Origin: a virus | Taxonomy: Duplodnaviria > Caudoviricetes | IMG/VR virus record: IMGVR_UViG_3300021400_001239 | Coordinates: 3,188-67,187 of that record | DNA: 64,000 nt | Reading direction: 5' to 3' (one strand) | Shown: positions 13,162 to 51,664 of the stretch, piece by piece | How the letters are laid out: each line of letters starts with the position of its first letter | How positions within the stretch are numbered: the first letter of the stretch is position 1 | Notes under the pieces: generated by a model | Databases searched by the model: none | Seen by the model: only the letters and a program-made list of their open reading frames with translations | Told to the model about the DNA's origin: nothing | Program-made: the position numbers and the translations under genes

Positions 13162-13241
13162 GAGAAAGAAGACGTAGGAATCGAACCTGCAATCTCTATT
13201 GTTTCCAATAGCGCTCTTCCATTGAGCTAGTCTTCTTTCTC
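13162..13241 (-). ncRNA. tRNA-like RNA (cloverleaf with abnormal anticodon loop, no CCA)
   Basis: Acceptor AGAAGAC/GTCTTCT (extends to 12 bp), D arm GCTC-AATGGAA-GAGC, stem CTATT/AATAG with 6-nt loop GGAAAC, T arm GCAGG-TTCGATT-CCTAC. Confidence 0.65.
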
Positions 13242-13261
13242 ATAATACTGGTTGTAAATGC

Positions 13262-13580
13262 TGCGCATACATCGCTTCGCAATGCCGCTGCATCACCATG
13301 TCATAGCACAACAGTACTGCACAATGCCTTAGCACCACAGGACCCTGCCTAACCATGCCTTTGCTACACACCTCGCCTCTATGCGTTGCCTTAGCCTAGC
13401 CACACAGCACATTACCTTGCCTTAGCCATACCGGACTTTGCTATACCTTAGCAGCTCAAGACTGAACATAGCCATCGCTATACTTTACTTTTCCTTACCT
13501 TCGCTAGACTTGACCATGCCTTCGCTTTACAAAACAGTATGCTGCCTTTCCATAGCTATACCTCACAATGCCTTCGCAAA
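13262..13580 (-). repeat. non-coding tandem array of about 12 units, each 1 nt plus 3-6 NGY-NN pentamers
   Basis: Unit lengths 26,26,21,26,26,26,31,31,31,26,16 (all 5n+1); junction consensus NGCDA^AGGYA; no ORF of 60 aa or more covers it. Confidence 0.85.
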
Positions 13581-14192
13581 TCAGTCTTTCTCACCAAGCA
13601 CCTCGTAGTGGAATCTGCCCCATCCGGCGTTGCGCCACTGACCAAGACCTTTGTAGATGCCATAATCAAGCCATTCTCTCACAACAGGCTCGTACTGGTC
13701 AGGAAATGTCAGTGTGCACTCGAAGGAAGATCCCTTGGAAATAGTCTCCGAATTGGCAAGGCAGATTCTCTCACCCTGAGCGGTCTGTGCTCTAAGAGGT
13801 CTCTGCATGTTGCCGATCTTGCCATCGAAATCGATAGGAATACGACGAGGAAAGACAAAAATGCATCCGTCAATGATCTTCTTGAACGCCTTGATTTTGC
13901 AGGACTCCTTGCTGATATCTTCACCCTTCATCCTCTGAAGAGCCGAGCAGGAATCCTTGAAGAAACCTTTGATCTGGTAATCCAGGATACAAGGTGTACC
14001 ATCAGCAGTACGAGGAAACACGGTCATAGTTTTCTCCTCGTACTCAGTAGCGCCCATAGCCTCGATCTCTTCCTTCATCGTCTTCGCGTCCGGCGCATTG
14101 CTGGCGATGAACTTTGAGTAGAGCTCCGGATCAGCAGGCTGAGAGCCAAGAACCTTTTCATCAAACGTAATCCTAATTTCGAGATGCTTCAT
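13581..14192 (-). CDS. stand-alone Cas7/Csm3-like RAMP-superfamily protein
   Basis: N-terminal strand LEIRITFDEKVLGS, TPCILDYQIKGFFKD (cf. Csm3 PxIPGSSxKG), C-terminal Gly-rich loop GLGQWRNAGWGRF; RBS AAAGGAG. Confidence 0.75.
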   Translation of the reverse strand: MKHLEIRITFDEKVLGSQPADPELYSKFIASNAPDAKTMKEEIEAMGATEYEEKTMTVFPRTADGTPCILDYQIKGFFKDSCSALQRMKGEDISKESCKIKAFKKIIDGCIFVFPRRIPIDFDGKIGNMQRPLRAQTAQGERICLANSETISKGSSFECTLTFPDQYEPVVREWLDYGIYKGLGQWRNAGWGRFHYEVLGEKD

Positions 14193-14204
14193 AATTATCT
14201 CCTT

Positions 14205-14483
14205 TCATAGAAAAATATGATCGTACAAATCCACAGAAATTTCATAGGCGACCCGGAACACCATCCCAGATCGCCTATCCATTTCTTTAATAAACTCTGA
14301 AACCACCATGGACGGCGGATCATCAGATTTTTCGACACGACTGATCAGCTCTTGCACAGTTGCTTGCGCATAAGATCTTGCCACAACACCATCCAAAGAT
14401 TGGCTATACACAGGATCTCCCATTTCAGCAAGATATTCGCGCATTCGCTTTAGAATACTGCACTTAGCTGTTCTCGTGCTCAT
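14205..14483 (-). CDS. hypothetical protein immediately upstream of the RAMP gene
   Basis: 92-aa ORF with RBS GGAGG, ends 12 nt before the RAMP start. Confidence 0.6.
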   Translation of the reverse strand: MSTRTAKCSILKRMREYLAEMGDPVYSQSLDGVVARSYAQATVQELISRVEKSDDPPSMVVSEFIKEMDRRSGMVFRVAYEISVDLYDHIFL

Positions 14484-14956
14484 TATACTTTGTCTTATCC
14501 TCCAGCATTATCCGATGGACGCGCTCGTCCAGATCTTCATCTCGTTTAACGGACGCAATAATACCAATTACACAGCAGATTGCGCCGACAATCTCACTGC
14601 CAAGTTCAACAACATCCCACTTCTTCATTTTATTCTCCTTCAGTGAATCTGCAGAAGTCCTGCAATCAATAATCCAGCCATAAGAAACACATGTGCGGGT
14701 CCCATATTAATCCTCCTTTTTCAAAAACAAAAAAGAGAACCGCCAAACGATTTTGTTCAGCGGTTCCCACCTTCACTTGGTTTCTGCTTTTTCTTTGTGT
14801 CTGGCCTGGTAATCACGATCCGCCTGCACGATCTTGATTACCTGCACCGTCGCGCTCAAGATCACTGCAGCAATTGCCGCAATCGCCAGACCGCTCAATC
14901 CTAATATCATGAGCAGATCCTCCTTTCCATTCAAGGAGCTGTTTAATCTGCGTGGT

Positions 14957-24552: not shown

Positions 24553-27500
24553 TCATACACCTCCTTCCACTCTTGTAATATTTAAGGTAATTGGAATTAA
24601 CATGCTATTGTAGCTGCGGTTAAATGACACATTAACCTGAGCCCAATATCCGCTTCCCGAAGGTTCCCTGACATAGGCGTTTCCTGTATAGATTGCCAAT
24701 CGTCTTAACTGATATAGGGTTTCTATATCGTTTCTTGGAATCTCGGTAGTCCAGTTAGAAGTAATTCCTAACTGTGTACCATAATAACTCACAGGATGCG
24801 AACGCCCAGCGTATGATATAAACGCTACATCTGGAGAATAATCGTCTGCTATTGCAATATTGTATGGCAGTTTGAGCATCGAACCGGACCACACCGGACT
24901 AGCAAACCAGTTTCCTTGTGCTTCTTCTTGATCGAGGTTGAAGTTTTCCCAGGTGTCGTCCCATTGAATAATTATTCCAGTTTCACCTACCGGAACACCA
25001 GGAAGATCATAGAAACCGACAGCACCGGTATTTTGATTTTGAGCAACCACCCTATACCTTGCGTGGTTTAGTGCAGGATGAGGATCGGTTATAGTAACGG
25101 ATCCATCATTAACAAGGCCGCTTTCTATAACCGTCAAACGACCATCGTATTCTCGTCTATATACACTCAGTAAAACGTCATCAACATAGTCAACGTCGTT
25201 TATCAAACAATACGGTCGAATGTAGGCGCATAATGTATCTGCGTCTATCGTTACATCGGCATCAGGAACTAAATCCTCATCATCCCAAGCTACTGTAAAT
25301 GACCATGACGCATCAGCAGTAAGACCAGAATCCATTGCCGCTGTAATCATAAGAATATAAGACACATTCTTATCAAGATTTACGTCACCTGCAGTCAATT
25401 CAAGGTTGAGAACGTTTTCGGTTGACGGAACATATCTTGAATATACAGATTCTCGTTCCCTGATGTATCTAGATTGCCCATTTTCATCAACGGTTTCGTA
25501 AGATTCATTAGCTATGATATCAACACTGAAGCCGATTGCTATTTGTGTGCTTGGTCTTGCAATGGCATTTATAATTATAGGATATGATCTAAGACCATAC
25601 ATCGGAGAGTCGTCTTCAGATTTTCCGGAAACATTAATTTCGAGCGTAGGTACTGCATAAAATATAATAGTTCTGTATCCAGACCATTCGCTGAAATCAT
25701 CCAAAACGCCTTTGGTTCTAACTCTCCATTTTAACGTAGCACCCTCTGGATAATCGCTATAGACAGCGCCAATAATTGCATCACCCTCCGAATCGGTAAT
25801 CACATTTCCGTTTTCGTCGGTAGTTTCATATTCGCCGACAGTGACCGGAGAAAATGTATAATAACTTGCCGTATCGTCTATAGACAAATGAGTAGCTTTA
25901 ACTATCGAAATAGCACCATTAAGTGTTAATTCTATTTCTGCATCTTGTTGTACAGAGCTATCCTCAGAATTATGAACCCAGTATAGATTTACAGTTTCGC
26001 CGATAACAGCGGTTGTTGTTTCAGACCATGTCGTTGGAGGCGACGGAACCTTTCCAAGAACAACCTTATAAATATCGGGACACCACCCAGAAGGCCCTAC
26101 TTCATTTACAGCTCGAACACGGAAAAAATATTCATGACCACTATCTAAACCGGTTATTAGAATTGCTTCAACGCCGTCAACGGATTTAGTAGTAGTCTGA
26201 TCAGATTCGTCAAAATAAGACAAATCTGTTGCATATTCAACATCATAGCTATCGGCGGTTTTAACTTTAGCCCAGGTAAGTCGTACCGATGTCTCGGTTA
26301 TGACTTGATGCGAGGTAAAACCAACAGGTGTTGCAGGTATAGTGTCAACATTGTCAGTATATTCAGACCATGTGCCAGCATTCCACTGTACATTAGACAT
26401 ATTTGTCGATGCACTATTAAGCTTCGTGGAATCAATTGGATTCATACCACGAGCTCTAACTTTGTAAAAACTGCCAGCCTGCACCGTGCAAGTAAATGTG
26501 GCTTCGTTATACGTAACCTCAGAGATACCAGTTTTGTATCTCTTTGAATTATTTGCTATAACATCGAACTGTATATGAGTAGTAGATGCATCGTAAGTTA
26601 CAACTTTTGCGGTCAGCGTAAGCCCATCGATGGAAATGGTCGGTGTCGGAGCTATTGCTGGATCACTGGTCACTTCCGTGTAAGAAAACGTAGTTGGTTC
26701 TGACTGAAGTGCTATCCATTCGTATGTGTCATCCTTAAGCCTGACAGTTTTCTTCTTGGCTATAGGCGTTACAAAGAATCGTATTTTTGTAGCTCCAGAT
26801 GGCGGCGTATAAAGCGAATAGCTTCTTTTCTCGTTTTCGTTTACCTGACCGTCGAACCATATCCCGCTACCAGGAGTCGTATACTGCCATACAGTTCGAT
26901 AATGGTCTGTGGTACTCGTGTAGTCCCAGTCCCAGGTAGCATACAATGTGCGTTCACCTGGAACTTGGACTCGTATTTCGGAAACTGCGGCTTTTTTCTT
27001 TTTTGTTTCCGGTTCCGAAACTTTTAAAGAATAAACAACCCATCCAGAAAATGGGAAAGTAACTGTACTAGAACTGCTAACACCCCTTACGTGATAACGA
27101 ACTTCAACAGCTTCCGCCCGTACATTATAGGTGGAAATGGGAGCCGTAACAGGTACTGTCGCCGACGAATCCGGCGACCATGTAGTTGCACCGCCCAGTC
27201 GATATTCCCATTCGATTTCAAAGTTGGATATTGCACCTGCTTTCCATTGCCATTGAGCTACAAGGGTCCGCTCAGTTCCAGCAACCAGACGACAGGTCTT
27301 TTTTACTGGTATTCGATTCTGACGTTCTGGGGTTTCTTCTACGACATTAAACGTTTTTGACCGTAACGATTTTGCAGTCCAGAAATATTTGTTACTAGCA
27401 CGAATCTTAGAAATCGGACGTACTGTTACTCGTACATTTTTTGCGTTCTGTGGTGCATCGTAAAGTGAGATTTTACTTGTTACAGAACTACGACTTCCAT

Positions 27501-28350
27501 CAAACCACGTCGTATCGCCAGGAACAGCATATTGCCAAACCACCTCGTAATGATCGGTATACGATTTGTTCCACGTCCAAGTAGCATAGACCGTTCTATC
27601 AGTTCCGTTCTGTCGGTCAAGACGTAAATTTGTAACCGTATCAGAAGAAACTTCAGTATCTTGTTCAATAACCAGTAACTTAGCTTCAGAATATCCCTTA
27701 CAAGTCCAATATGGAGTTTCAATAGCAGAATCAGGATAAGTTTCTGCAATCGGCTTTATACGAACCTTAATTCGAAGAGCATTATTAGGAGCTGTATAGG
27801 ATGAAAATTTATCAGTAACAATTCCACTATTACCAATAAACCACTCCTTGTTAGCAGTATAATATTCCCAAAGAACTGCATAACCAGCAGTATGGCTTCT
27901 CGACCAGGTCCATTCGGACCAATAGGTTCTGTCCGTTCCAGACTCTTTTCGGAGTCCAACCGCCGACTTATCCATCGCTGGAATTGATTTGGTTATGGAG
28001 CTTGCGTGTTCGGTAAAAGAATATGTGTAAAACTTAGTCCAGTTCGTTGTCCACTGTGGAGCAGAGTCACTCCCAGACTTAGCCTTCGCGACGGGCTTTA
28101 CCTGAACTCGTACACTAAGGGCGTTAGCCGGAGGAGTGAAAATGCTTTGTGTATGTGTTACGTTTTCTTCAGTGTTGATAAACCACTGAGGTTTTTTGTT
28201 TGTCGCAAGATTTCCAGTGGTATAATCCCATCGAACTTCATAGTGATCCGTCGTACTCGCCTTGTCCCACGACCAAGTCGCATAGACGGTTCTATCGGTA
28301 TTTTTCTGTAAATCGATTACTATATTAGCAATCGGATTAACTGATGCCAT
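24553..28350 (-). CDS. large minor tail protein with tandem Ig/FN3-like repeats
   Basis: Five repeats of RT.YATW.W...DHY.V.W.Y...WF plus FN3-like LTWAKV..ADSYDVEY and YFFRVRAVNEVGPSGW. Confidence 0.75.
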   Translation of the reverse strand: MASVNPIANIVIDLQKNTDRTVYATWSWDKASTTDHYEVRWDYTTGNLATNKKPQWFINTEENVTHTQSIFTPPANALSVRVQVKPVAKAKSGSDSAPQWTTNWTKFYTYSFTEHASSITKSIPAMDKSAVGLRKESGTDRTYWSEWTWSRSHTAGYAVLWEYYTANKEWFIGNSGIVTDKFSSYTAPNNALRIKVRIKPIAETYPDSAIETPYWTCKGYSEAKLLVIEQDTEVSSDTVTNLRLDRQNGTDRTVYATWTWNKSYTDHYEVVWQYAVPGDTTWFDGSRSSVTSKISLYDAPQNAKNVRVTVRPISKIRASNKYFWTAKSLRSKTFNVVEETPERQNRIPVKKTCRLVAGTERTLVAQWQWKAGAISNFEIEWEYRLGGATTWSPDSSATVPVTAPISTYNVRAEAVEVRYHVRGVSSSSTVTFPFSGWVVYSLKVSEPETKKKKAAVSEIRVQVPGERTLYATWDWDYTSTTDHYRTVWQYTTPGSGIWFDGQVNENEKRSYSLYTPPSGATKIRFFVTPIAKKKTVRLKDDTYEWIALQSEPTTFSYTEVTSDPAIAPTPTISIDGLTLTAKVVTYDASTTHIQFDVIANNSKRYKTGISEVTYNEATFTCTVQAGSFYKVRARGMNPIDSTKLNSASTNMSNVQWNAGTWSEYTDNVDTIPATPVGFTSHQVITETSVRLTWAKVKTADSYDVEYATDLSYFDESDQTTTKSVDGVEAILITGLDSGHEYFFRVRAVNEVGPSGWCPDIYKVVLGKVPSPPTTWSETTTAVIGETVNLYWVHNSEDSSVQQDAEIELTLNGAISIVKATHLSIDDTASYYTFSPVTVGEYETTDENGNVITDSEGDAIIGAVYSDYPEGATLKWRVRTKGVLDDFSEWSGYRTIIFYAVPTLEINVSGKSEDDSPMYGLRSYPIIINAIARPSTQIAIGFSVDIIANESYETVDENGQSRYIRERESVYSRYVPSTENVLNLELTAGDVNLDKNVSYILMITAAMDSGLTADASWSFTVAWDDEDLVPDADVTIDADTLCAYIRPYCLINDVDYVDDVLLSVYRREYDGRLTVIESGLVNDGSVTITDPHPALNHARYRVVAQNQNTGAVGFYDLPGVPVGETGIIIQWDDTWENFNLDQEEAQGNWFASPVWSGSMLKLPYNIAIADDYSPDVAFISYAGRSHPVSYYGTQLGITSNWTTEIPRNDIETLYQLRRLAIYTGNAYVREPSGSGYWAQVNVSFNRSYNSMLIPITLNITRVEGGV

Positions 28351-31300
28351 TAAGCCCTACCTCCCACCTTTGCGGCTCTGACTAGCATGTCAATGGCCGT
28401 AGAAACATTACTACCATCGTCGTATGTAATTCCGTCAATAATATACGTATTTCCTCTAGGAGCTTCATTCTGTTCCTTAAGAGCTTTAAGACCATCGATC
28501 AATGTCGACAGAATATCGTTGTCTCGGTCTCTGCGAGTCTTACGTTCGGATTCGACACTGCTAGCAGTTGATGTAGCCAGATCGATATTACCGTGAAGCG
28601 AGTATCTGTCCATATCGGACATCATAGAATAGAGTCTATTAGACCCATTTTGAATGTCCGACAAATCAAGAACCGGCTTGATGACCGGATCATCCACCAT
28701 ATCAGAGCTCATTAGATCGGACAAAGATAAAAGCGAATCACTAACGGTGCTTATAGCGCCCTCGGCAAGAACCCTTGCTGATTTGACAACCCCGAACGTG
28801 TTTCGTTTGATGCCTATCGCCAGACCCTGATCAAACCATTTACCAAGTTCGATCGTCTTCTTTGAAGGGGAATTCGACTTAAGTTCTCGTTTGGCCGCAT
28901 TATAAGCATCTCTGGCGGCTTGCTTGGCAGCGCTTTCAATCTTGCCAGCGTGATTCTTTACGCCCTTCGCAAGACCGTCCGACAATGCCTCACCAACGTC
29001 AACCCATTTATCTTTAGTGTCTTTAGCTGCTTCGGCACCGGCTTTAGCAACATCTTTGGCTGCCGTTTTGACTTTTGATTTATTTGCTTTTATTCCTTTG
29101 CCTAAAGAATCGTCAAAGGTCTTACCGGCAGATTTTGTTTTTTCGTTTCCGGCAGTCGTTGTAGCTGTTGACTGCAGTAATGACATCACGTCATCAACAC
29201 CAGAAGTAGCGTCAGACGCGTTATCGCTAATGCCTGACCCGATAATAGAAGGAATTTCGTTAGTAGAAGAGCCGATGCTATCCAGTATCTTTTGTGTATC
29301 AAACTCTTCACCCATTTGCTCTTTTAGTTTATCTAATGCGTCGGTAGCGTCAGAACTATTAGCCTCTATTGCAGAGCCGACCTCACTAGGAAGTTGTGCG
29401 GTCATCTGTGCCCATGCATCATCGCCGAACATCGACGTATCGAATTGTCCTTTTAAATATTCGCTAAAGTTATTAATATAATCTCCAGCTTCGCCAGACG
29501 ACCCTTCAACGCCGACACCTGCTTCTTTTGGCACTTTTTTTGTTATTTCTTGTATGCCGCCTTTCCCGAACAAAGTGTTTGAATACTCAGAAAGCATTCC
29601 GGTAGACATGGTTTTCATCGCTTTTTCAGCGACAGAAGAGTTGTTAGTAATTCCGTTAGCAGCACCTTCTGGAATGAACGCCGAGAACGCTTCCATTAAC
29701 TTTGATGGTGAATTAATCCCGAAAAAGTCGACGAACGCTTTGAACCCGGAAACGGCCATATCAGCAATTCCGCCTACGAATGCTCCACCGGTTTGAAGTA
29801 CACCGCCAACGGCACCGTTTACAATATCAGCACCTGCTTGCTGGAATGCTTGACCGAGAGATTTAATCTGTTCAACAATGGCCGGAATTGTACCGGCTAA
29901 AACAGACAATGCAGCAGCGAACAATAAAGAACCGGCGCCAACAAGTACAAAAGCAGCGCCAAGTGCTAATGACGGTACACCGGCGAAAGCGGCGGCAGCA
30001 CCAATAGCCACGATAACAATTGCAATACCGCCCAACCCTGCTCTCAATGTCTCTGGATCGCACTTATTCATTTCCTGAAGAGCAAACGCTAGTATGGACG
30101 CTCCAACACTTGCAATAACAAAAGCAGCGCCAACAACAACCATTGCTGCGGACAATTTCAACACGGTGCCAGCAAGAATATCAAGTTGAGGAGCAACCGC
30201 TGACATTGCCAAAAATGCTACCGCTATGCCGAATAAAGCATCCGCAATACCCTGAGAACCTTGAGCAAATTCTGCTTGATCCATTGATCCGAGCTTACGA
30301 ATAGCCTCGACGATGGCATATATTGTTGCAATCAGCACTAGCGGGGCCGCTAACATGCCAACATTTAGTTGTAACTGACTAAGTATTAATGCAGTACCAA
30401 CAAGTGCACCAGCTGCTGTCAGCATCATTTCTCGTGCACGTACTACATCTTCATTTGTGGCCAGTTTACCAGCAAGAATCATTTCAGCCAATAACAAGCC
30501 AAAAACAATCACGAATTCAAGAGGCGCTATCACCAAAGCAGGCGATAATTTAATTTCGCTCATAAACGCCGAAACGCCAACTAACGCAATAGCTGCCGCT
30601 GCCATGGCCTCAACGCCTGTATTTATTTCATCTCTAGTAGCTATTTTTCCAACTGCAACAATCTCAGCACAAAGTAAACCAACACCAATTGCAACGGATA
30701 TAGCCGTAATAAAAGCTCCAGGATTTATGCCATTTTGAAGTGCGGCGTTAAATGCAGCAGTAGCAAAAACTAGTACAGATGCTGTAAACAGCATAATCTG
30801 AAAACCTGCTTCGAGATTGGCCTTGTCATAAGCCAGACCCAATTTAACAATAGCCCCAGCCAATAAGCCAACGCCTAAAGCAAGTCCGATTGGAGCAGCC
30901 AAAGCACCCAAAGCAGCCGAAGATGTACCAGCGATATGTAACAAAATGCCTGAAGCTATTGAAATCACACCAAGAGCTGTAATTGCAACTGCTCCGCCCT
31001 TAACTAATAAATATATCGGTATCAAGGAAAGCACAATAATATCAGCAGCAAGAATAAGTAACGAGCCGACGATCGCCAAAGGCATAAGTACGTTTGCTGC
31101 ACCAGCGCTAAACATACCCATAATAGCTACAGCCGCTACAAGCAACGTACCCATAACCGTAATTCGATCGTATGCGGTGGTATACCACGTCTCAGGAATC
31201 AGAGCAAACGCCACTATATCGAGTGCTAGAATACCCAGAGCTAAAACGAAAGATATAGGCGCAAACAGATCTGCAGGATTAGAACCTAGATGTCTAAAAC

Positions 31301-34300
31301 CTTGCATACAAAGAGCTAGAACAACCATTATCTCAAATACGGCGTCCATACCTTTGCGTGCAACTTCTTCGTTAGACGAAACAAATTTACCGAATGCGAC
31401 AATCTCCGTTATCAGCACTCCAAGTGCTATCACAAACGAAAGAGGAACGAACAAATCCGTTACTTTGGCGTCAAGACTAGAAACAAGGCGAGTGCAAATT
31501 CCAAGCACGACCATTAATGCGCCGACAACAACACCGGTATAGATAATTTCGTCTGGCTTGAAATCCTTTAACTTCTCCATAGCTTTAGCGATCAGCACCA
31601 TTGCCGCAGCAAAAGCCAGAATCGATAAAGCACCACCTTGCGGATCACCGATTCTGTTAAATATCGAAATAGCAGCGTATGTGGCTCCTAAAGCAATCGC
31701 GATCTCTAACACTAATACAGCGATTTGTGCATATTTTTCTTCTGGAATTTTAGATAAAAGGAACATCGAAGCTGCTACGATTCCTATAGCAACTGCGATC
31801 TTAAGAATCATGTTGACTTTAATGCCGGTCTTAAATGTTGAAACAACAGAGCTCAACGAATCGAACAGTTTTGTGATTCCACCAGATAAACTTTTACCAA
31901 CACTAGCAAAGCTATCCGCAATTGACTGAAAAGCTTTACCAACACCGCCCCATGCATCCGCTAAACTCTTAAACTGTTTTCCCAATTCTTTAACCGTGTT
32001 CCTAACGGTAAGAATCGTCAAGATCATAGTTATCCTTGAAACCCAAAGATAAACGGTGTCAGGATCAAGCTTCGAAAGTGCTTTCGTGATTTCTTCAATA
32101 CCCCAACGAACTTTTTCCATCGCTGGCATATTCCACTTTTCAGCGAAAACACGTTTAATTTCTTCTATTTTTTCAGTGAGCGGACCGATCGCCTTCTCCT
32201 TAATCTTAGAAATAACATCGAAAATACCTTGTAAACCAAGGAACTGATATGACTGATTTGCGGCGTCCTTTATTCCTGATAGAGAAGCGCTAAAGTTGTC
32301 TAGAGACGAAATATTATCGTGCAATTTATGCACAAGTTCAACTAATGAGTCGAACCCTGGCATTTTGAAATTTTCAGAAACGACTTTAAACAGATCCTGA
32401 AAGAACTTAACAAAAGACTCAAGTGAAGGGCCGTTTTGCACTAGATTATCGACGAACTGTTTGACTGCATCAGCTGCCGGTATCGCGATGTTTTGTGTTA
32501 AGACTCCGAACAATCCGGATATAAAGTTTGTTACTTCTGAAAAAGATGGAATATACGCCGATATGTTTCTAGCAAACTCAACAATTTTATCGAATGCCGG
32601 AACTGCATATTTCTGTTTAATATTGTCAAAGAATGTTCTAATCGACGTAAAAGCTTTTTCGAAGTCGATTGCGTTGATCTTGTCGCGAACTTTTGTGATA
32701 GCGACGCCAACCGCGCCTCCGACGGTATCTAAAAACTTTGTAAAATCAATAGAACTTAATTTGTTTGCTGCAATGTCAATAACGTTGGCCAAAGACGTTG
32801 TAAAAAACTCGAATGCCTTTTTACCAGTCTCAAGTACACCGGATGTCTTTGGTAATTTAATATTTAGTTTATCGAGAAATGAAATGAACCTGTCAAAGGC
32901 TGGCGTTATCAGTTTCTCTTTAATCACGCCACCGAGGTTAGACATCGACGCGGCTAGTTTTGGTAATCCAGTAGACTTTGTGTTATTGCCTGCACTTTTC
33001 ACCAAATCCCCAAGGCCGACTCTTAAATTAGAGGCAGCATCGGCAAGTTTAGCAACAACATCTACAAAGCCTGAAACCAAATTGTGTTTATCGATAAATT
33101 CTAGTACCTTAGACGCAACGTCTCCAATGGCGGAAACGAGCATACCAAGAATATCGACAAGGCCGCTAAGATCGTTACCAATCGGTTTAACGATCTTGTC
33201 AAAAAGTTTTGTTTTTGTAATGGAATTTGATAATGCAAAAATGAAATCACCGATAGTAGCCGTTATGGATAATATTACAGAAATTGCACCATTACCAACT
33301 TTTGCAATAAGCGGTAAAGCCACACGTCCTATACTTAATAAGGCCGTTCCAAGAATTTTGGCAACAGAAAAGAGACCTCTAAATGTGCGTTGTAATTTGG
33401 AAATAGATTTGTCGTTAAGGACTAAGCTCTTTGAAAGAGTGTTGATATTTAGAATGAACCCTGCAATCTGAGCAAACAAAACAGGAGGGAATACTTCTGA
33501 GAAAGCCTTTTTCGCCGCTCCAGCGATCTTGGGTATGTTAGATAGGACATTAATTGCCGAATCAAATATCAACTTAATGCCGTAAAACGGGTCTTTTGTT
33601 TTCTCGAGAAGATCGTTCAGTGGTGTCCCAGACTCTTTTGCAACTTTGGCGAGTTCTCGAAGCGCATCTATTTGTTCTTTGGTATATCCTTTGGCCTTAA
33701 GTTGCTCATCAGACATGGCGGAAAGCACGTCAACGTTATTACTCTCGGCATCGATCGCATCGAGCATTGCGTCGGTGAAGTTCCACGTTCCGTCTGCAGC
33801 CTCGCGAATTTTGTTAACATACGCTTGTACAACTTCTGGATCGAAACCGGCTTCGGTTAACTTAGCGATTCTCTCTGCGCCGTTACCGTAATCGCCTCTG
33901 ATAGTAGCTATAGCGGCTTCACGAATCTCGTTAATATTCTTAACAGTTTCTTCGGTTCCTTCTTTCCCGAATACTTTGTTAAGAGCCTCCTTGAAAATAT
34001 CGAGTGTAAGCCAACCGTGTTTAAGGGTATCGAGAAAACTACCATCAGCTTCGATCATTTTATCGATCGCTATACCATGCTCTTCAGCGACATGCTTTAT
34101 AGCCGTTGTAAATGCATCAAGCTGAGTTTCGTTTAAACCGAGTCCCTCCATCATGCCTTTGGTTATAACCGATCCAGGAGACAACCCGCTCTTAAGAGTT
34201 GTAATTCCTTGGTTAAGCGTCTCAAAAAACTCTTTTACAGGAATAGCAGAAATTTTTTCCTGTAACCCCGATAGACCTTTAATTATGGCCCCGTCGACAA

Positions 34301-35351
34301 GATCCGCTAATGGCTGAACATTATCTCTAACCTCAGCTAACTTGTCTTTAACGATATTAAAGAAATTTACTAGAGGGCCTTCCTGCTCGATAAGGGGTGT
34401 ATAGAATTTTTCACCAATCTGTGAAAATCTGGCATTAACGTTACTAAGAACGCCAGTAAGTGTCTTATTAGCGTCCTTTGCGTGTTTGCCAAAAGTCTCA
34501 GCCATGGCGCTCGCAAAGACATCGAAGTTGATCTCGCCCTTACTTGTCCATTCTCGTATCTCACCTTCTGTAACCTGTAAGCCATTAGTGAGTTCTTTGA
34601 TCGAGGCACGAACAGATTCAGTAGCTTCTACAGATCCATTTTGAACATTGTTAAAATAGTTAGCAATAATAGCGGCAGCGTTCAAGCCTCTTGTCGATAG
34701 CTGAAGAAGCTCGTCGCCCATAAGACGACCTTTACCGGCAACCTGCGTAAAAATAGTCGAAATGCTCGAATACTCGGAGTTTGTTGTAGCTGCAACACCA
34801 GCAACACCAGCCAAAGTGCGTTTCATCTGCTCTCCGGCTTTAACGCCAGAAGTAGCAAATTGAGCAGCCGCCATAGCTGCCTGATCATATCCATAAGCAG
34901 TATCAGTAACCGAGTCTTTCGCGTTGGTCATGATCTCTTCGATTTCTTTAGAGTCGTCTCTAAGACCCTGTAACAGAAATCGAGCCTGCTCAACGTTCAT
35001 TGCTCGGCGTTTACCGCCTTGAACTATCTTGCTGGTTACACTATTAATTGCGGTAAGGAGATTGCTTCGAACATGCCTTGTAAGATCCATGATGTTGGTC
35101 ATACCAACTATTCCCAGTGTAGAAAACCGTTTAGTCAGTCTGTCTACGCCGGTCTCAATCTTACTAAGATTAGTAGACTCAGAAGCTTTAGTAATTTTTT
35201 CGAATGCTTGATCAGATCCTTTAAACTTAAGCGCTTCTTTAAGTCTCCCAAGCGTGTTTATGGAGGTCTGCGCTGCTTGTTCAAACTGTTGATTATTGAA
35301 CGACAGTTCTGCACCGAATTCGGCAACGCGCTTCTCAACAGTCGTACTCAC
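28350..35351 (-). CDS. tape measure protein
   Basis: About 2330 aa, Ala/Gly-rich helical repeats and many TM-like segments, follows the tail chaperones; GTG start likely. Confidence 0.92.
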   Translation of the reverse strand: MSTTVEKRVAEFGAELSFNNQQFEQAAQTSINTLGRLKEALKFKGSDQAFEKITKASESTNLSKIETGVDRLTKRFSTLGIVGMTNIMDLTRHVRSNLLTAINSVTSKIVQGGKRRAMNVEQARFLLQGLRDDSKEIEEIMTNAKDSVTDTAYGYDQAAMAAAQFATSGVKAGEQMKRTLAGVAGVAATTNSEYSSISTIFTQVAGKGRLMGDELLQLSTRGLNAAAIIANYFNNVQNGSVEATESVRASIKELTNGLQVTEGEIREWTSKGEINFDVFASAMAETFGKHAKDANKTLTGVLSNVNARFSQIGEKFYTPLIEQEGPLVNFFNIVKDKLAEVRDNVQPLADLVDGAIIKGLSGLQEKISAIPVKEFFETLNQGITTLKSGLSPGSVITKGMMEGLGLNETQLDAFTTAIKHVAEEHGIAIDKMIEADGSFLDTLKHGWLTLDIFKEALNKVFGKEGTEETVKNINEIREAAIATIRGDYGNGAERIAKLTEAGFDPEVVQAYVNKIREAADGTWNFTDAMLDAIDAESNNVDVLSAMSDEQLKAKGYTKEQIDALRELAKVAKESGTPLNDLLEKTKDPFYGIKLIFDSAINVLSNIPKIAGAAKKAFSEVFPPVLFAQIAGFILNINTLSKSLVLNDKSISKLQRTFRGLFSVAKILGTALLSIGRVALPLIAKVGNGAISVILSITATIGDFIFALSNSITKTKLFDKIVKPIGNDLSGLVDILGMLVSAIGDVASKVLEFIDKHNLVSGFVDVVAKLADAASNLRVGLGDLVKSAGNNTKSTGLPKLAASMSNLGGVIKEKLITPAFDRFISFLDKLNIKLPKTSGVLETGKKAFEFFTTSLANVIDIAANKLSSIDFTKFLDTVGGAVGVAITKVRDKINAIDFEKAFTSIRTFFDNIKQKYAVPAFDKIVEFARNISAYIPSFSEVTNFISGLFGVLTQNIAIPAADAVKQFVDNLVQNGPSLESFVKFFQDLFKVVSENFKMPGFDSLVELVHKLHDNISSLDNFSASLSGIKDAANQSYQFLGLQGIFDVISKIKEKAIGPLTEKIEEIKRVFAEKWNMPAMEKVRWGIEEITKALSKLDPDTVYLWVSRITMILTILTVRNTVKELGKQFKSLADAWGGVGKAFQSIADSFASVGKSLSGGITKLFDSLSSVVSTFKTGIKVNMILKIAVAIGIVAASMFLLSKIPEEKYAQIAVLVLEIAIALGATYAAISIFNRIGDPQGGALSILAFAAAMVLIAKAMEKLKDFKPDEIIYTGVVVGALMVVLGICTRLVSSLDAKVTDLFVPLSFVIALGVLITEIVAFGKFVSSNEEVARKGMDAVFEIMVVLALCMQGFRHLGSNPADLFAPISFVLALGILALDIVAFALIPETWYTTAYDRITVMGTLLVAAVAIMGMFSAGAANVLMPLAIVGSLLILAADIIVLSLIPIYLLVKGGAVAITALGVISIASGILLHIAGTSSAALGALAAPIGLALGVGLLAGAIVKLGLAYDKANLEAGFQIMLFTASVLVFATAAFNAALQNGINPGAFITAISVAIGVGLLCAEIVAVGKIATRDEINTGVEAMAAAAIALVGVSAFMSEIKLSPALVIAPLEFVIVFGLLLAEMILAGKLATNEDVVRAREMMLTAAGALVGTALILSQLQLNVGMLAAPLVLIATIYAIVEAIRKLGSMDQAEFAQGSQGIADALFGIAVAFLAMSAVAPQLDILAGTVLKLSAAMVVVGAAFVIASVGASILAFALQEMNKCDPETLRAGLGGIAIVIVAIGAAAAFAGVPSLALGAAFVLVGAGSLLFAAALSVLAGTIPAIVEQIKSLGQAFQQAGADIVNGAVGGVLQTGGAFVGGIADMAVSGFKAFVDFFGINSPSKLMEAFSAFIPEGAANGITNNSSVAEKAMKTMSTGMLSEYSNTLFGKGGIQEITKKVPKEAGVGVEGSSGEAGDYINNFSEYLKGQFDTSMFGDDAWAQMTAQLPSEVGSAIEANSSDATDALDKLKEQMGEEFDTQKILDSIGSSTNEIPSIIGSGISDNASDATSGVDDVMSLLQSTATTTAGNEKTKSAGKTFDDSLGKGIKANKSKVKTAAKDVAKAGAEAAKDTKDKWVDVGEALSDGLAKGVKNHAGKIESAAKQAARDAYNAAKRELKSNSPSKKTIELGKWFDQGLAIGIKRNTFGVVKSARVLAEGAISTVSDSLLSLSDLMSSDMVDDPVIKPVLDLSDIQNGSNRLYSMMSDMDRYSLHGNIDLATSTASSVESERKTRRDRDNDILSTLIDGLKALKEQNEAPRGNTYIIDGITYDDGSNVSTAIDMLVRAAKVGGRA

Positions 35352-35725
35352 TTTGACACCTCCTTCCACGCTTCTGCCAGCAATCTATCAAACACGGGCT
35401 GAAGGGCTGGATTTATATAATCGCGCCCCTCAACCCATCCACCGTTTCTGGTTCCGTGGCCGTACTGTAATATAACAGCTATCGGAACACCCTTATTAAC
35501 GTTATCGTTACAAAAACTTATTACTACACTGTTCGCTTTCTGAGTAATTTTGTAATACCATGAAGATGCCGTATTTCCGGTGTCAACCGGCGTAGCAGCT
35601 TTTAGTGCTTCAACACCCTCTTTGCCAAACTTCTCAAAAGATTGCATCAGTAGACCGCGCTTAATGTTATTTAAAAAAGAATCAAGCTTTAAGAAGTCGC
35701 CAGTTGATTTCCACTGCATCAACAT
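35348..35725 (-). CDS. HK97-gp10-like tail completion protein
   Basis: ATPVDTGNTASSW and QYGHGT..GGWV.G.DYINPA motifs. Confidence 0.7.
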   Translation of the reverse strand: MLMQWKSTGDFLKLDSFLNNIKRGLLMQSFEKFGKEGVEALKAATPVDTGNTASSWYYKITQKANSVVISFCNDNVNKGVPIAVILQYGHGTRNGGWVEGRDYINPALQPVFDRLLAEAWKEVSK

Positions 35726-48691: not shown

Positions 48692-51664
48692 TTAAGTCTT
48701 TATAATTCTACTAATTGTAGATGAAGAAACACCAAATTGTTCTGCTATTTGTGCAGTAGTCATTGTACCTATAGATGCTAGAGCTTTGATCTGTCTCTTC
48801 TTTGCGTCGCTAAGACCACGTTGATCATGAGGTGTAGCTAATTCTCTAACTCTATCTGCATCGGCGTATTTAAGTATCTTAGTTAACTTATCATCCGATA
48901 TAGCCCCGCTTTGTATTGCTTCCCACTCTCGTTCGCTAATACTTATAGGGTGACGCTTAGCGCCTACCTGAAGCCTGGCATCTTTAAGATACTGATCCGA
49001 TTTCTTCTTTATTTCTTTTGGCTCGAGGTCCGGGTACTGGGCTTTAAGCACTCGCATCCGGCATCCTGCAATATACTGCGCTTGTTTTTCAAGAGGTCTG
49101 TTATGCTCTGCTATACTGAGCTGATCCTCAAGACTCTTGACTTCTTTAGCATAAGTCTTAGCAGCACTGGGGCTCCGTTTAAGTGTTCCTGTATAGACTT
49201 GCTCTTTTCGCGCTTCGTTTGCCATAGCTTTAAGCGTGTTCGCGTAGTTCGCGTAGATTCTCTCTTTTTCAGAGTTAAGTGGAGATATAAGTTCTCGAGC
49301 ATCGTCCACCTCTCTCATCTGGCGGCTCTTCTCAGTTCTGACTTTGGTCTTCCCCGTCTTCTCCCAAACTGGCTTACCCGTTTCAGGATCGATAAGAGTT
49401 TTCTTTGTTTCAGGATCTTTAACTTTACGGATCTCTTCGTACTCTAACTTATCAGCTGTCTTATAGATAAGCGCTCCTTCAGGTCTGTTAGGATCGTACC
49501 ACTGTTTGCCTTTCTGATTGATTCGAGGTGAACCCTGCCGCTTAAGAACAGTCTGCTTCGAGTTGGCCCTGGTAATAAGGGTTGCTGCTGCGGTAGACCA
49601 CTTCCCGTTATCCTTAACTCGACCCTGCCACTCATCTTTGAGCTGCTTGATACCCTGCTCCTTATAGCATCTCATATAGTCGAGGTTATGTTTATCAGCA
49701 TCGATAACCGTCATACTATATTTAACAGCGCGTGCGAGCTGATCTGGACCTGCACCACCGACAGTCATATCGGCAATCAAGTTACTGATCTGCCCCATCT
49801 CGTTTTGGGTACGACCCTTACTAAGATGTTTATATGCCTTGTCGGTTGACCCAGGCCCGTACTGAACTTTTGGATCAAACCCAACAAGATCTTTGAGCAT
49901 CGGGTCGTCTTTAATCTTAACCTTACCGTTATATGGAATACACAGAACGGTATCCCCGTCAAAGTCGGCCCCCGACATCTTCTCAGCAACGTTTGCACTT
50001 ATCCCGATAGCGTCCTTCGCATTTGCTGTAATAACCTTCTTACCCTCCGGTAAGTTGTTGTTAACAGTGAGCCTTGCTATCTGGAAGGTCCCCTCGTGTG
50101 GAAAGCGAACGGTCCATATGGTACTCCCGTTCTTAAAGTTCGGAGCGTAGACCTGGTCATCACTGATCGTACGAAGGGGGAGTATTACCTGATACCTCTG
50201 CCCCGGGAAAGGAGACGCCTTAAGCTTGGTGGCTGTGGTATCGCAGTCTGATGCAAATGACGCCAGCAGCTGCCTTCGTACTGTGGGGTTGGTGAGCTGT
50301 TTAATTTCATCAAACTCCGCCTGTTTATCAGCGATACTTACCGCTAACTGATCTTTGATAAGTTTAATGGGCTGCTTAGAAAGAAACTGTGCCGGGAGCT
50401 TCTTAGCCCATTCATCCCAGTCCCCCTCATCACTCTTCTTGTTGATAACCCGGAGATGCTTGTTACCATCAGCGTCAGTCCAATACGACTGTCCCCCGCG
50501 TTCGTGCTCTTTGATCAGTGTGCCGAACGGGTTCTCTGGATCATCTTTTTTGATGGGTTTAAGAACTGAGTTATCCTTGGTCCCCATCATAGGAGTCCCT
50601 GTTGGCTTGTTGGTGTTAAACACCATGTCGATACCATCGGGCCATCCTTTGGCGTCCGAGTATACTGCCATGCCTTTGATATAATGCGTACCATCGACCA
50701 GCACTCGGACCTGGGCGTAATTAGAATCGGTACCGGCATCATTTTTCAAAGAACAATCATCGACACCCCTCCGGATCTCGACAACACCATCCATTTCTTT
50801 ACCGCCCTGATCGCCATAACGGATCATCAAGCGTTTTGAATCAAAGCTGGCAGGATACTCGAATGCCTTCTTAAGCTTGCCATCGGCGCTAACCATGACG
50901 TTCTCGTTCTTAAAGAAATTAATTTCCTTATTATAAATATCTTTATAAGGCGTTCCAGGCGGACAAATAACTTTCGTGTTAGTTTGTTTCCCTGGGTTGG
51001 TGACCTGAGAGTAACCTCGTCCGTAGATCTCGTACCCCTGAATATAAAGTCTATATAATGCCTGGTCCAGCTTTGTTTTACTAACATTAAGAGACATGGC
51101 AGCATCTGCACCAACGTCATACATACCGTTCTTATCAACAAGCTCTTTGATCTGATCGGAGAGCATCTTTGACTGGGATTTACGATTATGAACAGCATCG
51201 TTAAGAAGTGCTCTAATCGAACTATCGTTATTGTACTCAAATCCGGCTTCACGCATCTTTTTAACGACCTGATCCAAGGACATTCTAACCCCTTCGCTGT
51301 CGTCTTTACCATTATTAAAACGGAATTCAAGAGCGGCATCTCTCGCAACGGCTCTCGTTTCCTCAGTAGCGATCTCTTTGGCCGTGCGGAACTCCGTGGT
51401 GTTCATACCCTGTCGCTTAGCAACAGCAGTAGCTCCGGTGTACCGTTTGCCGTTCTCGTCAACATAGTCAACGTTTTCTTGCAACTCTCTATTAACTCGT
51501 GTCAGCCAATCTTTGTAGTGCTGATAAGCTTTCTTACCAGTACCCCAGCCCCATCGTCCAGATCCACGTCCAGGTGGGTTCTCATCATGAGCCACTCCCG
51601 TGTGTTCAAGCTCATTCCAATATTCTTGAAACTCTTCGTAGTCGTCAAAATATTCAACGCTCAT
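48692..51664 (-). CDS. putative single-chain two-barrel (DPBB) RNA polymerase with C-terminal HTH
   Basis: Catalytic-type SGADFDGD, upstream VRFPH and GQRYQVILP, second-barrel candidates EMDG and YIKG; C-terminal TTAQIAEQFGVSSSTISRI HTH. Confidence 0.7.
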   Translation of the reverse strand: MSVEYFDDYEEFQEYWNELEHTGVAHDENPPGRGSGRWGWGTGKKAYQHYKDWLTRVNRELQENVDYVDENGKRYTGATAVAKRQGMNTTEFRTAKEIATEETRAVARDAALEFRFNNGKDDSEGVRMSLDQVVKKMREAGFEYNNDSSIRALLNDAVHNRKSQSKMLSDQIKELVDKNGMYDVGADAAMSLNVSKTKLDQALYRLYIQGYEIYGRGYSQVTNPGKQTNTKVICPPGTPYKDIYNKEINFFKNENVMVSADGKLKKAFEYPASFDSKRLMIRYGDQGGKEMDGVVEIRRGVDDCSLKNDAGTDSNYAQVRVLVDGTHYIKGMAVYSDAKGWPDGIDMVFNTNKPTGTPMMGTKDNSVLKPIKKDDPENPFGTLIKEHERGGQSYWTDADGNKHLRVINKKSDEGDWDEWAKKLPAQFLSKQPIKLIKDQLAVSIADKQAEFDEIKQLTNPTVRRQLLASFASDCDTTATKLKASPFPGQRYQVILPLRTISDDQVYAPNFKNGSTIWTVRFPHEGTFQIARLTVNNNLPEGKKVITANAKDAIGISANVAEKMSGADFDGDTVLCIPYNGKVKIKDDPMLKDLVGFDPKVQYGPGSTDKAYKHLSKGRTQNEMGQISNLIADMTVGGAGPDQLARAVKYSMTVIDADKHNLDYMRCYKEQGIKQLKDEWQGRVKDNGKWSTAAATLITRANSKQTVLKRQGSPRINQKGKQWYDPNRPEGALIYKTADKLEYEEIRKVKDPETKKTLIDPETGKPVWEKTGKTKVRTEKSRQMREVDDARELISPLNSEKERIYANYANTLKAMANEARKEQVYTGTLKRSPSAAKTYAKEVKSLEDQLSIAEHNRPLEKQAQYIAGCRMRVLKAQYPDLEPKEIKKKSDQYLKDARLQVGAKRHPISISEREWEAIQSGAISDDKLTKILKYADADRVRELATPHDQRGLSDAKKRQIKALASIGTMTTAQIAEQFGVSSSTISRIIKT

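What the first reader, a model, noticed from the sequence alone, without database searches (positions are those of the whole stretch)
13262..14192. Minimal phage RNA-guided system candidate: lone Cas7-like RAMP gene plus a pentamer-coded repeat array
Seen: a 203-aa gene with RAMP hallmarks (N-terminal strand ..FDEKVLGS, PCILDYQIKGFFKD, Gly-rich loop GLGQWRNAGWGRF) ends at 13581. A ~320-nt non-coding periodic array begins within 3 nt of its stop codon on the same strand. No cas1/2/3/5/6/10 genes or canonical repeat-spacer array are seen in the window. Established: Cas7/Csm3 RAMPs polymerise along guide RNA with fixed periodicity. Inference: the protein oligomerises on array-derived RNAs, one subunit per 5-nt unit, gripping the constant NGY and presenting the variable NN for target recognition. 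Likely uses are interference with competing phages or gene silencing. From memory this resembles recently reported viral RAMP-plus-repeat (VIPR-type) systems; I cannot verify that here.
Basis: partly seen in the sequence, partly recalled or inferred. Interest (0 to 1): 0.95.

Follow-up and report, generated by a model that had tools for sequence, protein, structure and literature searches.

The report
Gut-phage VIPR system, punctuated guide array
A temperate gut phage carries a small CRISPR-like (Cas7-fold) protein gene followed directly by a 320-base array of five-letter repeats: a real copy of the VIPR RNA-guided DNA-silencing systems first described in 2026, in a little-studied variant form whose targets remain unknown.

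Summary
A 203-aa gene (13581-14192, minus strand) is followed, 3 nt after its stop codon and on the same strand, by a ~320-nt non-coding tract (13577-13258). That tract has strong 5-nt periodicity of G-pyrimidine (z 8.2 against shuffles) and nothing else in the 67-kb phage genome resembles it.

The protein has no Pfam or PHROG match. It folds confidently as a single-domain Cas7/Csm3-like RAMP, and its family profile aligns end to end with the characterised Vipr of phage SUSP1.

In 142 of 151 relatives' loci a pentamer array sits next to the gene, while no neighbouring gene is conserved. The interpretation as a VIPR-type system is therefore supported, and the class is already published in three 2026 preprints. 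This scan has also noted VIPR-like loci on other DNA many times.

The variant form differs from the studied type II in five ways:
- The unit is G-Y-N-N-N, with three variable positions.
- Guides are short blocks of 5n+1 nt, mostly 26 or 31 nt, with conserved junctions.
- There are no 3' tails.
- There is no accessory (vap) gene.
- The two residues that read the first G in SUSP1 are replaced.

Related strains in other gut metagenomes keep the flanks but swap or delete array blocks. Natural targets and the reading rule could not be settled.

The parts
13581..14192 (-). vipr gene: 203-aa single-domain Cas7-like RAMP. N-terminal strand at residues 2-10, helix-1 at 71-86, thumb beta-hairpin at 126-151, G-loop at 182-193 (G-L-G-Q-W-R-N-A-G-W-G-R).
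   Evidence: ORF. AF2 model with a 93-sequence alignment: pLDDT 88.6. Foldseek: type VII Cas7 E 1.5e-9, also Csm3. VIA-align: Z 13.3 to Csm3. hhalign to SUSP1 Vipr: E 1.4e-5 over 172 columns.
13258..13577 (-). vrRNA array: about 61 pentamer units n-G-Y-n-n in about 12 blocks, non-coding, starting 3 nt after the vipr stop codon.
   Evidence: Periodicity z 8.2, unique in the window. Parse into blocks. RNA is no more structured than shuffles, z +0.64. C-poor composition: G109 A86 U77 C48.
13552..13572 (-). block 1: 4 units + 1 nt (21 nt). Identical block in relative L001.
13521..13551 (-). block 2: 6 units + 1 nt (31 nt)
13500..13520 (-). block 3: 4 units + 1 nt (21 nt)
13474..13499 (-). block 4: 5 units + 1 nt (26 nt)
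13448..13473 (-). block 5: 5 units + 1 nt (26 nt). Identical block in L001.
13422..13447 (-). block 6: 5 units + 1 nt (26 nt). Identical block in L001.
13391..13421 (-). block 7: 6 units + 1 nt (31 nt)
13360..13390 (-). block 8: 6 units + 1 nt (31 nt)
13329..13359 (-). block 9: 6 units + 1 nt (31 nt)
13298..13328 (-). block 10: 6 units + 1 nt (31 nt)
13258..13297 (-). terminal, less regular part: an 11-nt block (2 units + 1 nt), then 6 units with one 4-nt step.

Best explanation
This is a VIPR (Viral Interference Programmable Repeat) system of a complete, temperate 67-kb gut phage. It has two parts: a vipr gene and a directly abutting array of guide RNAs (vrRNAs).

Likely working, by analogy with the solved SUSP1 system: the array is transcribed with vipr and divided into short guides at the conserved block junctions. 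Vipr protomers then polymerise along each guide, one per 5-nt unit. They hold the constant G and the following pyrimidine in pockets that include the conserved G-loop Trp-Arg, and they expose the variable letters. Those letters pair with double-stranded DNA of a competing mobile element or phage and silence it.

Shown here: the RAMP fold, homology to a characterised Vipr, the array and its grammar, the conserved gene-array pairing, and block turnover between strains.

Inferred: transcription, processing at junctions, filament assembly, DNA (rather than RNA) targeting, the reading rule, and the biological targets.
For: Literature. VIPR is defined in bioRxiv 10.64898/2026.04.26.720920 as a Vipr RAMP plus pentamer vrRNAs. 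The paper lists alternative units NNNGG, YNNNG and NNNNG, 'staggered' arrays, and stand-alone vipr genes. The structure paper 10.64898/2026.04.26.720927 gives one protomer per repeat, with W178/R179 of the G-loop and H17/D177 as the base contacts.

Protein.
- AF2 model pLDDT 88.6, pTM 0.81.
- Foldseek PDB: 210 hits at E<=0.001; every row shown is a CRISPR effector-complex entry. The best is type VII Cas7 at E 1.5e-9.
- VIA-align: Z 13.3 (Csm3, rmsd 2.5 over 140 residues). The top 26 hits are all CRISPR RAMPs.
- Family profile against PDB sequences: Cas7 E 9.8e-6, Csm4 E 4.8e-4, aligned over the G-loop.
- I located the SUSP1 VIPR locus in KT454805 with my own periodicity scan. I confirmed its Vipr by the paper's residue numbers and by PDB 36pp.
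- This family's profile aligns to SUSP1 Vipr from residue 1 to about 200: hhalign E 1.4e-5, prob 80%. Profile against profile gives E 3.5e-5, prob 72%.
- W186-R187 here align with SUSP1 W178-R179.

Array.

Association.
- In 81 viral loci the periodicity is confined to 0-350 nt after the stop codon on the same strand.
- With a threshold at the 99.9th percentile of 24,966 background windows, 65 of 70 independent MAG loci and 77 of 81 viral loci have an adjacent array.
- No neighbouring gene is shared, so gene plus array is the mobile unit.

Scaffold against code. In 335 near-identical block pairs the substitution rate is 0.027 at the G and 0.07 at the next base. It is 0.10-0.16 at the other three positions.

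Turnover. In other gut metagenomes the flanks are 90-99% identical. One contig replaces 215 nt of array with 152 other letters. Another carries an in-register 140-nt deletion.
Against: - Sequence homology to the characterised Vipr is only moderate (hhalign probability 72-80%).
- The type II features '9-16 units plus an invariant 3' tail per vrRNA' and a vap gene are absent.
- The first G of GGY is not conserved in inner units.
- No expression data: no RNA run holds the stretch.
- No natural target was found under any reading rule.
- Guides of 4-6 units would specify only 8-12 (or 12-18) bases, fewer than the studied vrRNAs.
- The low substitution rate at the G is partly built in, because blocks were called by their G's.
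Confidence: 0.87

Rival explanations
1. It is a VIPR-family system but works by a different code than the published one. Each unit would present three bases (positions 4, 5 and the first letter of the next unit), read as contiguous triplets or with another skip. Each block of about 31 nt (about six protomers, one filament turn in SUSP1) would be one short guide.
For: - Position 1 of inner units has near-even composition (A .33, G .29, T .24, C .14) and evolves as fast as position 4.
- The two SUSP1 residues that read G1 (H17, D177) are S17 and Q185 here, and Q185 is nearly invariant in this family.
- The triplets formed this way are depleted in TAA (z -4.0), TAG (-2.7) and CTA (-4.1).
- The modal block is 6 units, and the SUSP1 filament has six subunits per turn.
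- Earlier scan notes on other DNA propose three-base or contiguous codes. These are leads only.
Against: - Exact contiguous 18-mers from two window guides gave only 2 and 1 hits in IMG/VR, which is chance level and shows no convergence.
- There was no enrichment over shuffled guides in the 1.1-Mb local set.
- Skip letters in the hits to an L001 guide agree with position 1 only about as often as chance (my count on the output).
- The stop-codon depletion is small: 80% of guides are open against 77% expected.
Confidence: 0.2
2. The protein is a RAMP-fold RNA-processing or RNA-binding factor (Cas6-like endoribonuclease, or an anti-CRISPR decoy that soaks up host Cas proteins or crRNA). The repeat tract would be its substrate or decoy, not a set of programmable guides.
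For: - Cas6 and RNase P protein subunits appear lower in the structural list at Z 6.5-8.7.
- A tRNA gene abuts the array in this phage.
- No target was found.
Against: - The best structural matches are backbone Cas7/Csm3 subunits, not Cas6.
- The protein aligns end to end with a Vipr of demonstrated guide function.
- Variable letters interleaved with an invariant scaffold, and cassette turnover between strains, are the signature of stored specificity.
- The tract does not resemble CRISPR repeats.
- The tRNA is not conserved beside relatives' arrays.
Confidence: 0.05
3. The periodic tract is a by-product: a degenerate microsatellite, a recombination hotspot or a decayed coding region, with no functional link to the neighbouring gene.
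For: Tandem Repeats Finder does not call it. Its length varies between strains.
Against: - An adjacent array is present in 142 of 151 homolog loci across genomic contexts that share no other gene.
- The block grammar and junction motif are the same at 41-87% protein identity.
- The array always lies on the gene's strand in the pooled profile.
Confidence: 0.02

Closest known systems
VIPR systems with alternative YNNNG units and 'staggered' vrRNA arrays (bioRxiv 10.64898/2026.04.26.720920, methods on type classification and legend of fig. S18)
   Same: - Lone small RAMP gene in a phage.
- Pentamer array whose unit, read in the paper's register, is Y-N-N-N-G.
- Guides abut one another without spacers or tails and are offset by one nucleotide.
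- No CRISPR array or cas genes.
   Different: I could read only the text, not the figures or tables. Which of the seven types this clade belongs to, and whether its junction motif (n-G-C-n-A-n | G-G-M-A-W) and block lengths are those drawn there, is therefore not established. None of these variant types has a tested targeting rule in the text I read; small-RNA data are mentioned only for types III and V.
Type II VIPR of Escherichia phage SUSP1 (KT454805: Vipr 28474-29061, vap1 28031-28471; PDB 36pp)
   Same: - Protein of about 200 aa with the same order of elements, alignable over the full length.
- G-loop Trp-Arg conserved.
- 5-nt repeat RNA on the gene's strand.
- Phage-borne.
   Different: SUSP1 has four vrRNAs of about 100 nt. 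Each has 9-16 strict GGY-NN units and a structured invariant 3' tail, one lies upstream of the operon, and there is a vap1 gene. This locus differs as follows:
- about 12 abutting blocks of 2-6 units
- no tails
- no vap
- a relaxed first G
- S17/Q185 in place of H17/D177
CRISPR-Cas backbone RAMPs: Csm3 (type III-A Cas7) and type VII Cas7
   Same: RRM core, thumb hairpin and glycine-rich loop. These are the best structural matches (Z 11.5-13.3; Foldseek E 1e-9 to 1e-7).
   Different: - Sequence identity is only 10-20%.
- CRISPR Cas7 binds 6 nt per subunit of a contiguous spacer; here the repeat is 5 nt.
- No cas1, no CRISPR array and no partner Cas subunits were found in the complete phage genome.

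Membership tests
VIPR system | Vipr protein: small single-RRM RAMP with G-loop and thumb | tested here: met
   AF2 pLDDT 88.6 with strand-helix-hairpin-G-loop-strand order. Foldseek Cas7/Csm3 E 1.5e-9. VIA-align Z 13.3. PDB-sequence profile hits lie on the G-loop.
VIPR system | Sequence homology to an experimentally characterised Vipr | tested here: met
   hhalign of the family profile against SUSP1 Vipr: E 1.4e-5, prob 80%, 172 columns. Against the SUSP1-family profile: E 3.5e-5, prob 72%, 178 columns. The Vipr ORF is the top hmmsearch hit among ORFs of SUSP1's first 50 kb, but weakly (E 0.011). Overall moderate, not strong.
VIPR system | Adjacent non-coding tandem pentamer repeats with conserved scaffold letters alternating with variable letters | tested here: met
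   Lag-5 periodicity z 8.2. G at position 2 in 94-100% of units and never G at position 3. Substitutions are concentrated at positions 1, 4 and 5. The unit is GYNNN (the paper's YNNNG), not strict GGYNN.
VIPR system | Gene-array pairing conserved among homologs | tested here: met
   65 of 70 MAG loci and 77 of 81 viral loci have an adjacent array above the 99.9th background percentile. The pooled profile peaks only 0-350 nt after the stop codon.
VIPR system | Not associated with CRISPR arrays or cas genes | tested here: met
   No Cas1 in the complete 67-kb record. No CRISPR-like repeats by TRF. Neighbouring genes are phage genes of unknown function.
VIPR system | Accessory vap gene next to vipr (typical, not universal) | tested here: not met
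   None of 12 flanking ORFs of the window recurs in 80 homolog loci. No neighbour family is shared by more than 4 of 13 Vipr clusters or sits at a fixed place. The paper notes that stand-alone vipr genes exist.
VIPR system | vrRNAs expressed and bound by Vipr as a filament, one protomer per unit | not testable with these tools
   Needs small-RNA sequencing, pull-down or cryo-EM.
VIPR system | Targets dsDNA by the NN + 1-nt-skip rule | tested here: inconclusive
   Local 1.1-Mb set: 271 of 952 guides hit, against 267 +/- 7 for shuffled guides. IMG/VR exact scans of relatives' 9-unit guides gave 0, 12 and 0 hits, against 6 for a shuffled control. The window's own guides have at most 12 specified bases, below the scan's minimum of 14.
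VIPR type II (SUSP1-like) | vrRNAs of 9-16 strict GGY-NN units, each capped by an invariant structured 3' tail | tested here: not met
   Blocks have 2-6 units here and a mode of 6 in relatives. They abut directly with no tail, and G1 is not conserved in inner units. SUSP1's own arrays show the tails clearly.
VIPR type II (SUSP1-like) | GGY-reading residues H17, D177, W178, R179 | tested here: not met
   W186 and R187 align with W178 and R179 and are conserved. H17 and D177 align with S17 and Q185 (residue roles).
CRISPR-Cas class 1 effector (Cas7/Csm3) | Encoded with other cas genes and a repeat-spacer array; 6-nt periodicity on a contiguous spacer | tested here: not met

The most novel reading that the evidence does not exclude
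This large gut-Clostridia phage clade of Vipr proteins has lost the G1 pocket. It uses one-turn (about 31-nt, six-protomer) guides in which three of every five bases carry information. Its DNA-reading rule would then differ from the published two-base, skip-one code. The conserved junction motif would serve both as the processing site and as the filament start.
Probability: 0.2. Interest if true: 0.65.

Novelty: new member of a known kind. Interest (0 to 1): 0.4.

Why it matters
VIPR is a months-old class, and only type II has been worked out. This locus is a clean, complete-genome example of an abundant gut-phage clade. That clade comprises 1666 protein clusters at 50% identity, mostly in Oscillospiraceae- and Lachnospiraceae-type MAGs and ruminant or human gut viromes.

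The clade has a minimal two-part architecture and a punctuated array grammar. It also offers a testable link between two replaced base-reading residues and a relaxed scaffold letter. If the reading rule differs here, that would widen the design space of these very small programmable DNA binders. If it does not, the locus is simply another VIPR.

Tried and rejected
- **Single-sequence fold.** pLDDT was 37, so the model was unusable. I replaced it with the alignment-based model.
- **Pfam and PHROGs on the protein.** No hits.
- **The search for related loci with the alignment.** I used the single protein instead.
- **RNA evidence.** No RNA holder was listed. One metatranscriptome run of the source sample was laid and gave no contigs.
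- **Target search in the local set.** The local 1.1-Mb set of own genome plus 153 loci showed no enrichment for NN+0/1/2 or NNN+0/1. The NN+3 and NNN+2 excesses have the array's own spacing and most likely reflect unmasked array copies. The first run timed out.
- **IMG/VR exact scans.** Contiguous 18-mers from two window guides gave 2 and 1 hits, inside giant ORFs of unknown function. NNx patterns of 9-unit guides from relatives gave 0, 12 (seven unrelated contexts) and 0 hits, against 6 for a shuffled control.
- **tRNA as a conserved array terminator.** Rejected, because none lies beside the arrays in 16 relatives' loci scanned.
- **The 92-aa upstream ORF as a vap.** Rejected as a conserved partner.
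- **Direct structural superposition on SUSP1 Vipr (PDB 36pp).** Not possible: that entry was not among the fold-search results shown.

Full report
**1. What is there**

The window is almost all of a complete 67,187-bp virus record with direct terminal repeats. Every gene lies on the minus strand. The genes include terminase, portal, protease, endolysin, DNA polymerase/primase and an integrase, so the phage is temperate.

Its TGA stop lies at 13583-13581. After three T's the tract 13577-13258 begins on the same strand.

On that strand, G followed by a pyrimidine recurs at lag 5 in 39 pairs. Dinucleotide-preserving shuffles give 13.2 +/- 3.2, so z = 8.2. In a sliding scan of both strands this region is the one outlier, scoring 47.8 against a mean of -0.7 and sd of 3.8. 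There is no second array in the genome. The RNA is C-poor and no more structured than shuffles (z +0.64), as expected of a protein-coated guide rather than a folded ncRNA.

**2. Array grammar**

A dynamic-programming parse gives about 61 units of the form n-G-Y-n-n. They are grouped into about 12 blocks of 2-6 units (4-6 for the first ten), and each block closes with a 6-nt step, so block length is 5n+1. In the window the blocks are 21, 26 or 31 nt long. There are no intervening tails.

The same grammar holds in relatives at 54-87% protein identity. Over 153 blocks from 12 loci:
- The first unit is G(.95) G(.98) C/A(.93) A(.79) A/T(.85).
- Inner units are n-G(.94)-H-n-n, with position 1 nearly even in composition.
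- The last unit is n-G(1.0)-C(.88)-n-A(.79)-n.
- The modal length is 6 units (31 nt), followed by 5.

Among 335 near-identical block pairs, the substitution rates are:

| Position in unit | Rate |
|---|---|
| 2 (the G) | 0.027 |
| 3 | 0.07 |
| 4 | 0.10 |
| 1 | 0.11 |
| 5 | 0.16 |
| Junction G, C and A | about 0 |

One caveat applies: blocks were called by their G's, so the low rate at position 2 is partly built in. Read in the preprint's register, the unit is Y-N-N-N-G.

**3. The protein**

There is no Pfam or PHROG match, yet the family is very large. It has 1666 clusters at 50% identity with E<=0.001 and 7929 hits among 8000 candidates scored in the word-indexed search, none of them named.

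A single-sequence fold failed. With a 93-sequence alignment (A1) AlphaFold2 gives pLDDT 88.6 and pTM 0.81. The order of elements is:
- strand, residues 2-10
- a low-confidence helical insert, residues 20-55
- helix-1, residues 71-86
- a long beta-hairpin, residues 126-151, which I read as the thumb; it carries the conserved R131, R134 and R142
- helix
- glycine-rich loop, residues 182-193
- final strand

Fold comparisons point to CRISPR backbone RAMPs:
- Foldseek against the PDB gives 210 hits at E<=0.001, led by type VII Cas7 (E 1.5e-9) and Csm3.
- VIA-align against 48,161 representative chains gives Z 13.3 and 13.2 to Csm3. Cmr, gRAMP, type VII, type IV and type I Cas7 follow. The first 26 rows are all CRISPR RAMPs.
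- The family profile also reaches PDB sequences of Cas7 (E 9.8e-6) and Csm4 (E 4.8e-4) over the G-loop module.

**4. Is it a Vipr?**

The recalled 'VIPR' exists in three 2026 preprints. They define the following:
- a Vipr RAMP plus vrRNAs of pentamer repeats
- a solved filament with one protomer per repeat
- a two-base, skip-one reading of dsDNA
- seven types, including alternative units (NNNGG, YNNNG, NNNNG), 'staggered' abutting arrays and stand-alone vipr genes

I fetched phage SUSP1 (KT454805). My periodicity scan picks out exactly the two intergenic regions that flank genes 28031-28471 and 28474-29061. The latter gene carries H17, E71, M72, R138, C173, D177, W178 and R179 as numbered in the structure paper. 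It is PDB 36pp, 'SUSP1 Vipr protein'.

The A1 profile aligns with SUSP1 Vipr from residue 1 to the C-terminus: hhalign E 1.4e-5, prob 80%. Against a 38-sequence profile of the SUSP1 family it gives E 3.5e-5, prob 72%.

In that alignment W178-R179 correspond to the nearly invariant W186-R187 here. The two residues that hydrogen-bond the first G of GGY (H17, D177) correspond to S17 and the nearly invariant Q185. This parallels the loss of conservation of that first G in inner units. The link is a correlation that I infer, not a demonstrated cause.

**5. Association and mobility**

- In 80 IMG/VR loci plus the window, the pooled periodicity is at background everywhere except 0-350 nt after the stop codon on the gene's strand.
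- In 73 further loci from MAGs, mostly gut Clostridia such as Oscillospiraceae and Lachnospiraceae from ruminants, rabbits and humans, 65 of the 70 with enough flank have an adjacent array above the 99.9th percentile of 24,966 background windows. Of these, 53 are downstream and 20 upstream. The figure for the viral loci is 77 of 81.
- None of the window's 12 flanking ORFs recurs in any other locus, even at 87% Vipr identity.
- No neighbour family is shared by more than 4 of 13 Vipr clusters.

So the conserved, mobile unit is gene plus array, and this clade has no conserved vap.

**6. Turnover**

The closest relative (L001, 87% identity) shares three blocks letter for letter and differs in the rest.

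Contigs from goat, sheep and other gut metagenomes cover the gene, the tRNA and the downstream genes at 90-99% identity. Inside the array, one contig replaces 215 nt with 152 other letters. Another contig, 99% identical on both sides, lacks exactly 13291-13430. The junction of that deletion falls after the G of one unit and before position 3 of another, so it is in register. That is what unequal exchange between units would give. These are contigs, so they show presence only.

**7. Targets and code**

This question is not settled.
- Local set.
- The window's guides have at most 12 specified bases under NNx, below the collection scan's minimum of 14.
- Contiguous 18-mers of two window guides gave 2 and 1 exact hits in IMG/VR, within giant ORFs of unknown function, with no convergence.
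- NNx patterns of three 9-unit guides of relatives gave 0, 12 and 0 hits. The 12 fall in seven unrelated contexts, and a unit-shuffled control gave 6.
- A weak depletion of TAA, TAG and CTA among position-4, position-5 and next-position-1 triplets hints at coding-derived triplets, but it is small.

**8. Verdict**

This is a genuine VIPR locus. The class is already in print, and this scan has noted VIPR-like loci in at least 282 other genomes, so the finding is a new member of a known kind.

What sets it apart from the one well-studied type:
- the 5n+1 block punctuation with a conserved junction motif
- three variable letters per unit
- replaced G1-reading residues
- no tail and no vap

Whether these features change the reading rule is the open question worth an experiment.

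Noticed in passing
window 13164-13237 (-): A tRNA gene sits directly after the array. It matches Rfam tRNA at 46.3 bits (gathering score 29), but its anticodon arm is abnormal: a 5-bp stem with a 6-nt loop, or a 4-bp stem with an 8-nt loop. ARAGORN calls it 'tRNA-???' with a 2-nt anticodon. It is conserved in related strains' contigs but is not found beside the arrays of 16 relatives' loci scanned. It could supply an RNase P/Z cut at the array's 3' end in this phage, or it could be an odd or decayed tRNA.
   Followed up: partly
window 48692-51664 (-): A 990-aa protein matches phrog_4291 over its full length (E 1.5e-280). That PHROG is annotated 'RNA-dependent RNA polymerase', an unusual label for a dsDNA temperate phage. 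The protein may be a phage-encoded single-subunit RNA polymerase.
   Followed up: no
window 24553-28350 (-) and 28350-35369 (-): Two very large adjacent ORFs of 1265 and 2339 aa. The first has no PHROG match at E<=1e-5. The second was not searched.
   Followed up: no
L083 and L084 (JAGCAN010000001.1, 70347-76964 and 22454-29071): One 86-kb Oscillospiraceae MAG contig holds two vipr copies with identical match statistics, about 47.9 kb apart. This may be an assembled concatemer of a ~48-kb phage, or two related prophages.
   Followed up: no
L073 5381-5580; pooled background (max 38.5): Some relatives carry strong pentamer-periodic tracts more than 700-1000 nt away from vipr. These may be second or solo arrays, like the orphan vrRNAs described in the October 2026 preprint.
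   Followed up: no
window 14205-14483 (-) and 14464-14628 (-): Two small ORFs of 92 and 54 aa lie just upstream of vipr, after a terminator-like hairpin at 14768-14735, so they may share its transcript. They are not conserved beside vipr elsewhere. The 92-aa protein has only a weak PHROG hit (phrog_10740, E 0.002).
   Followed up: partly
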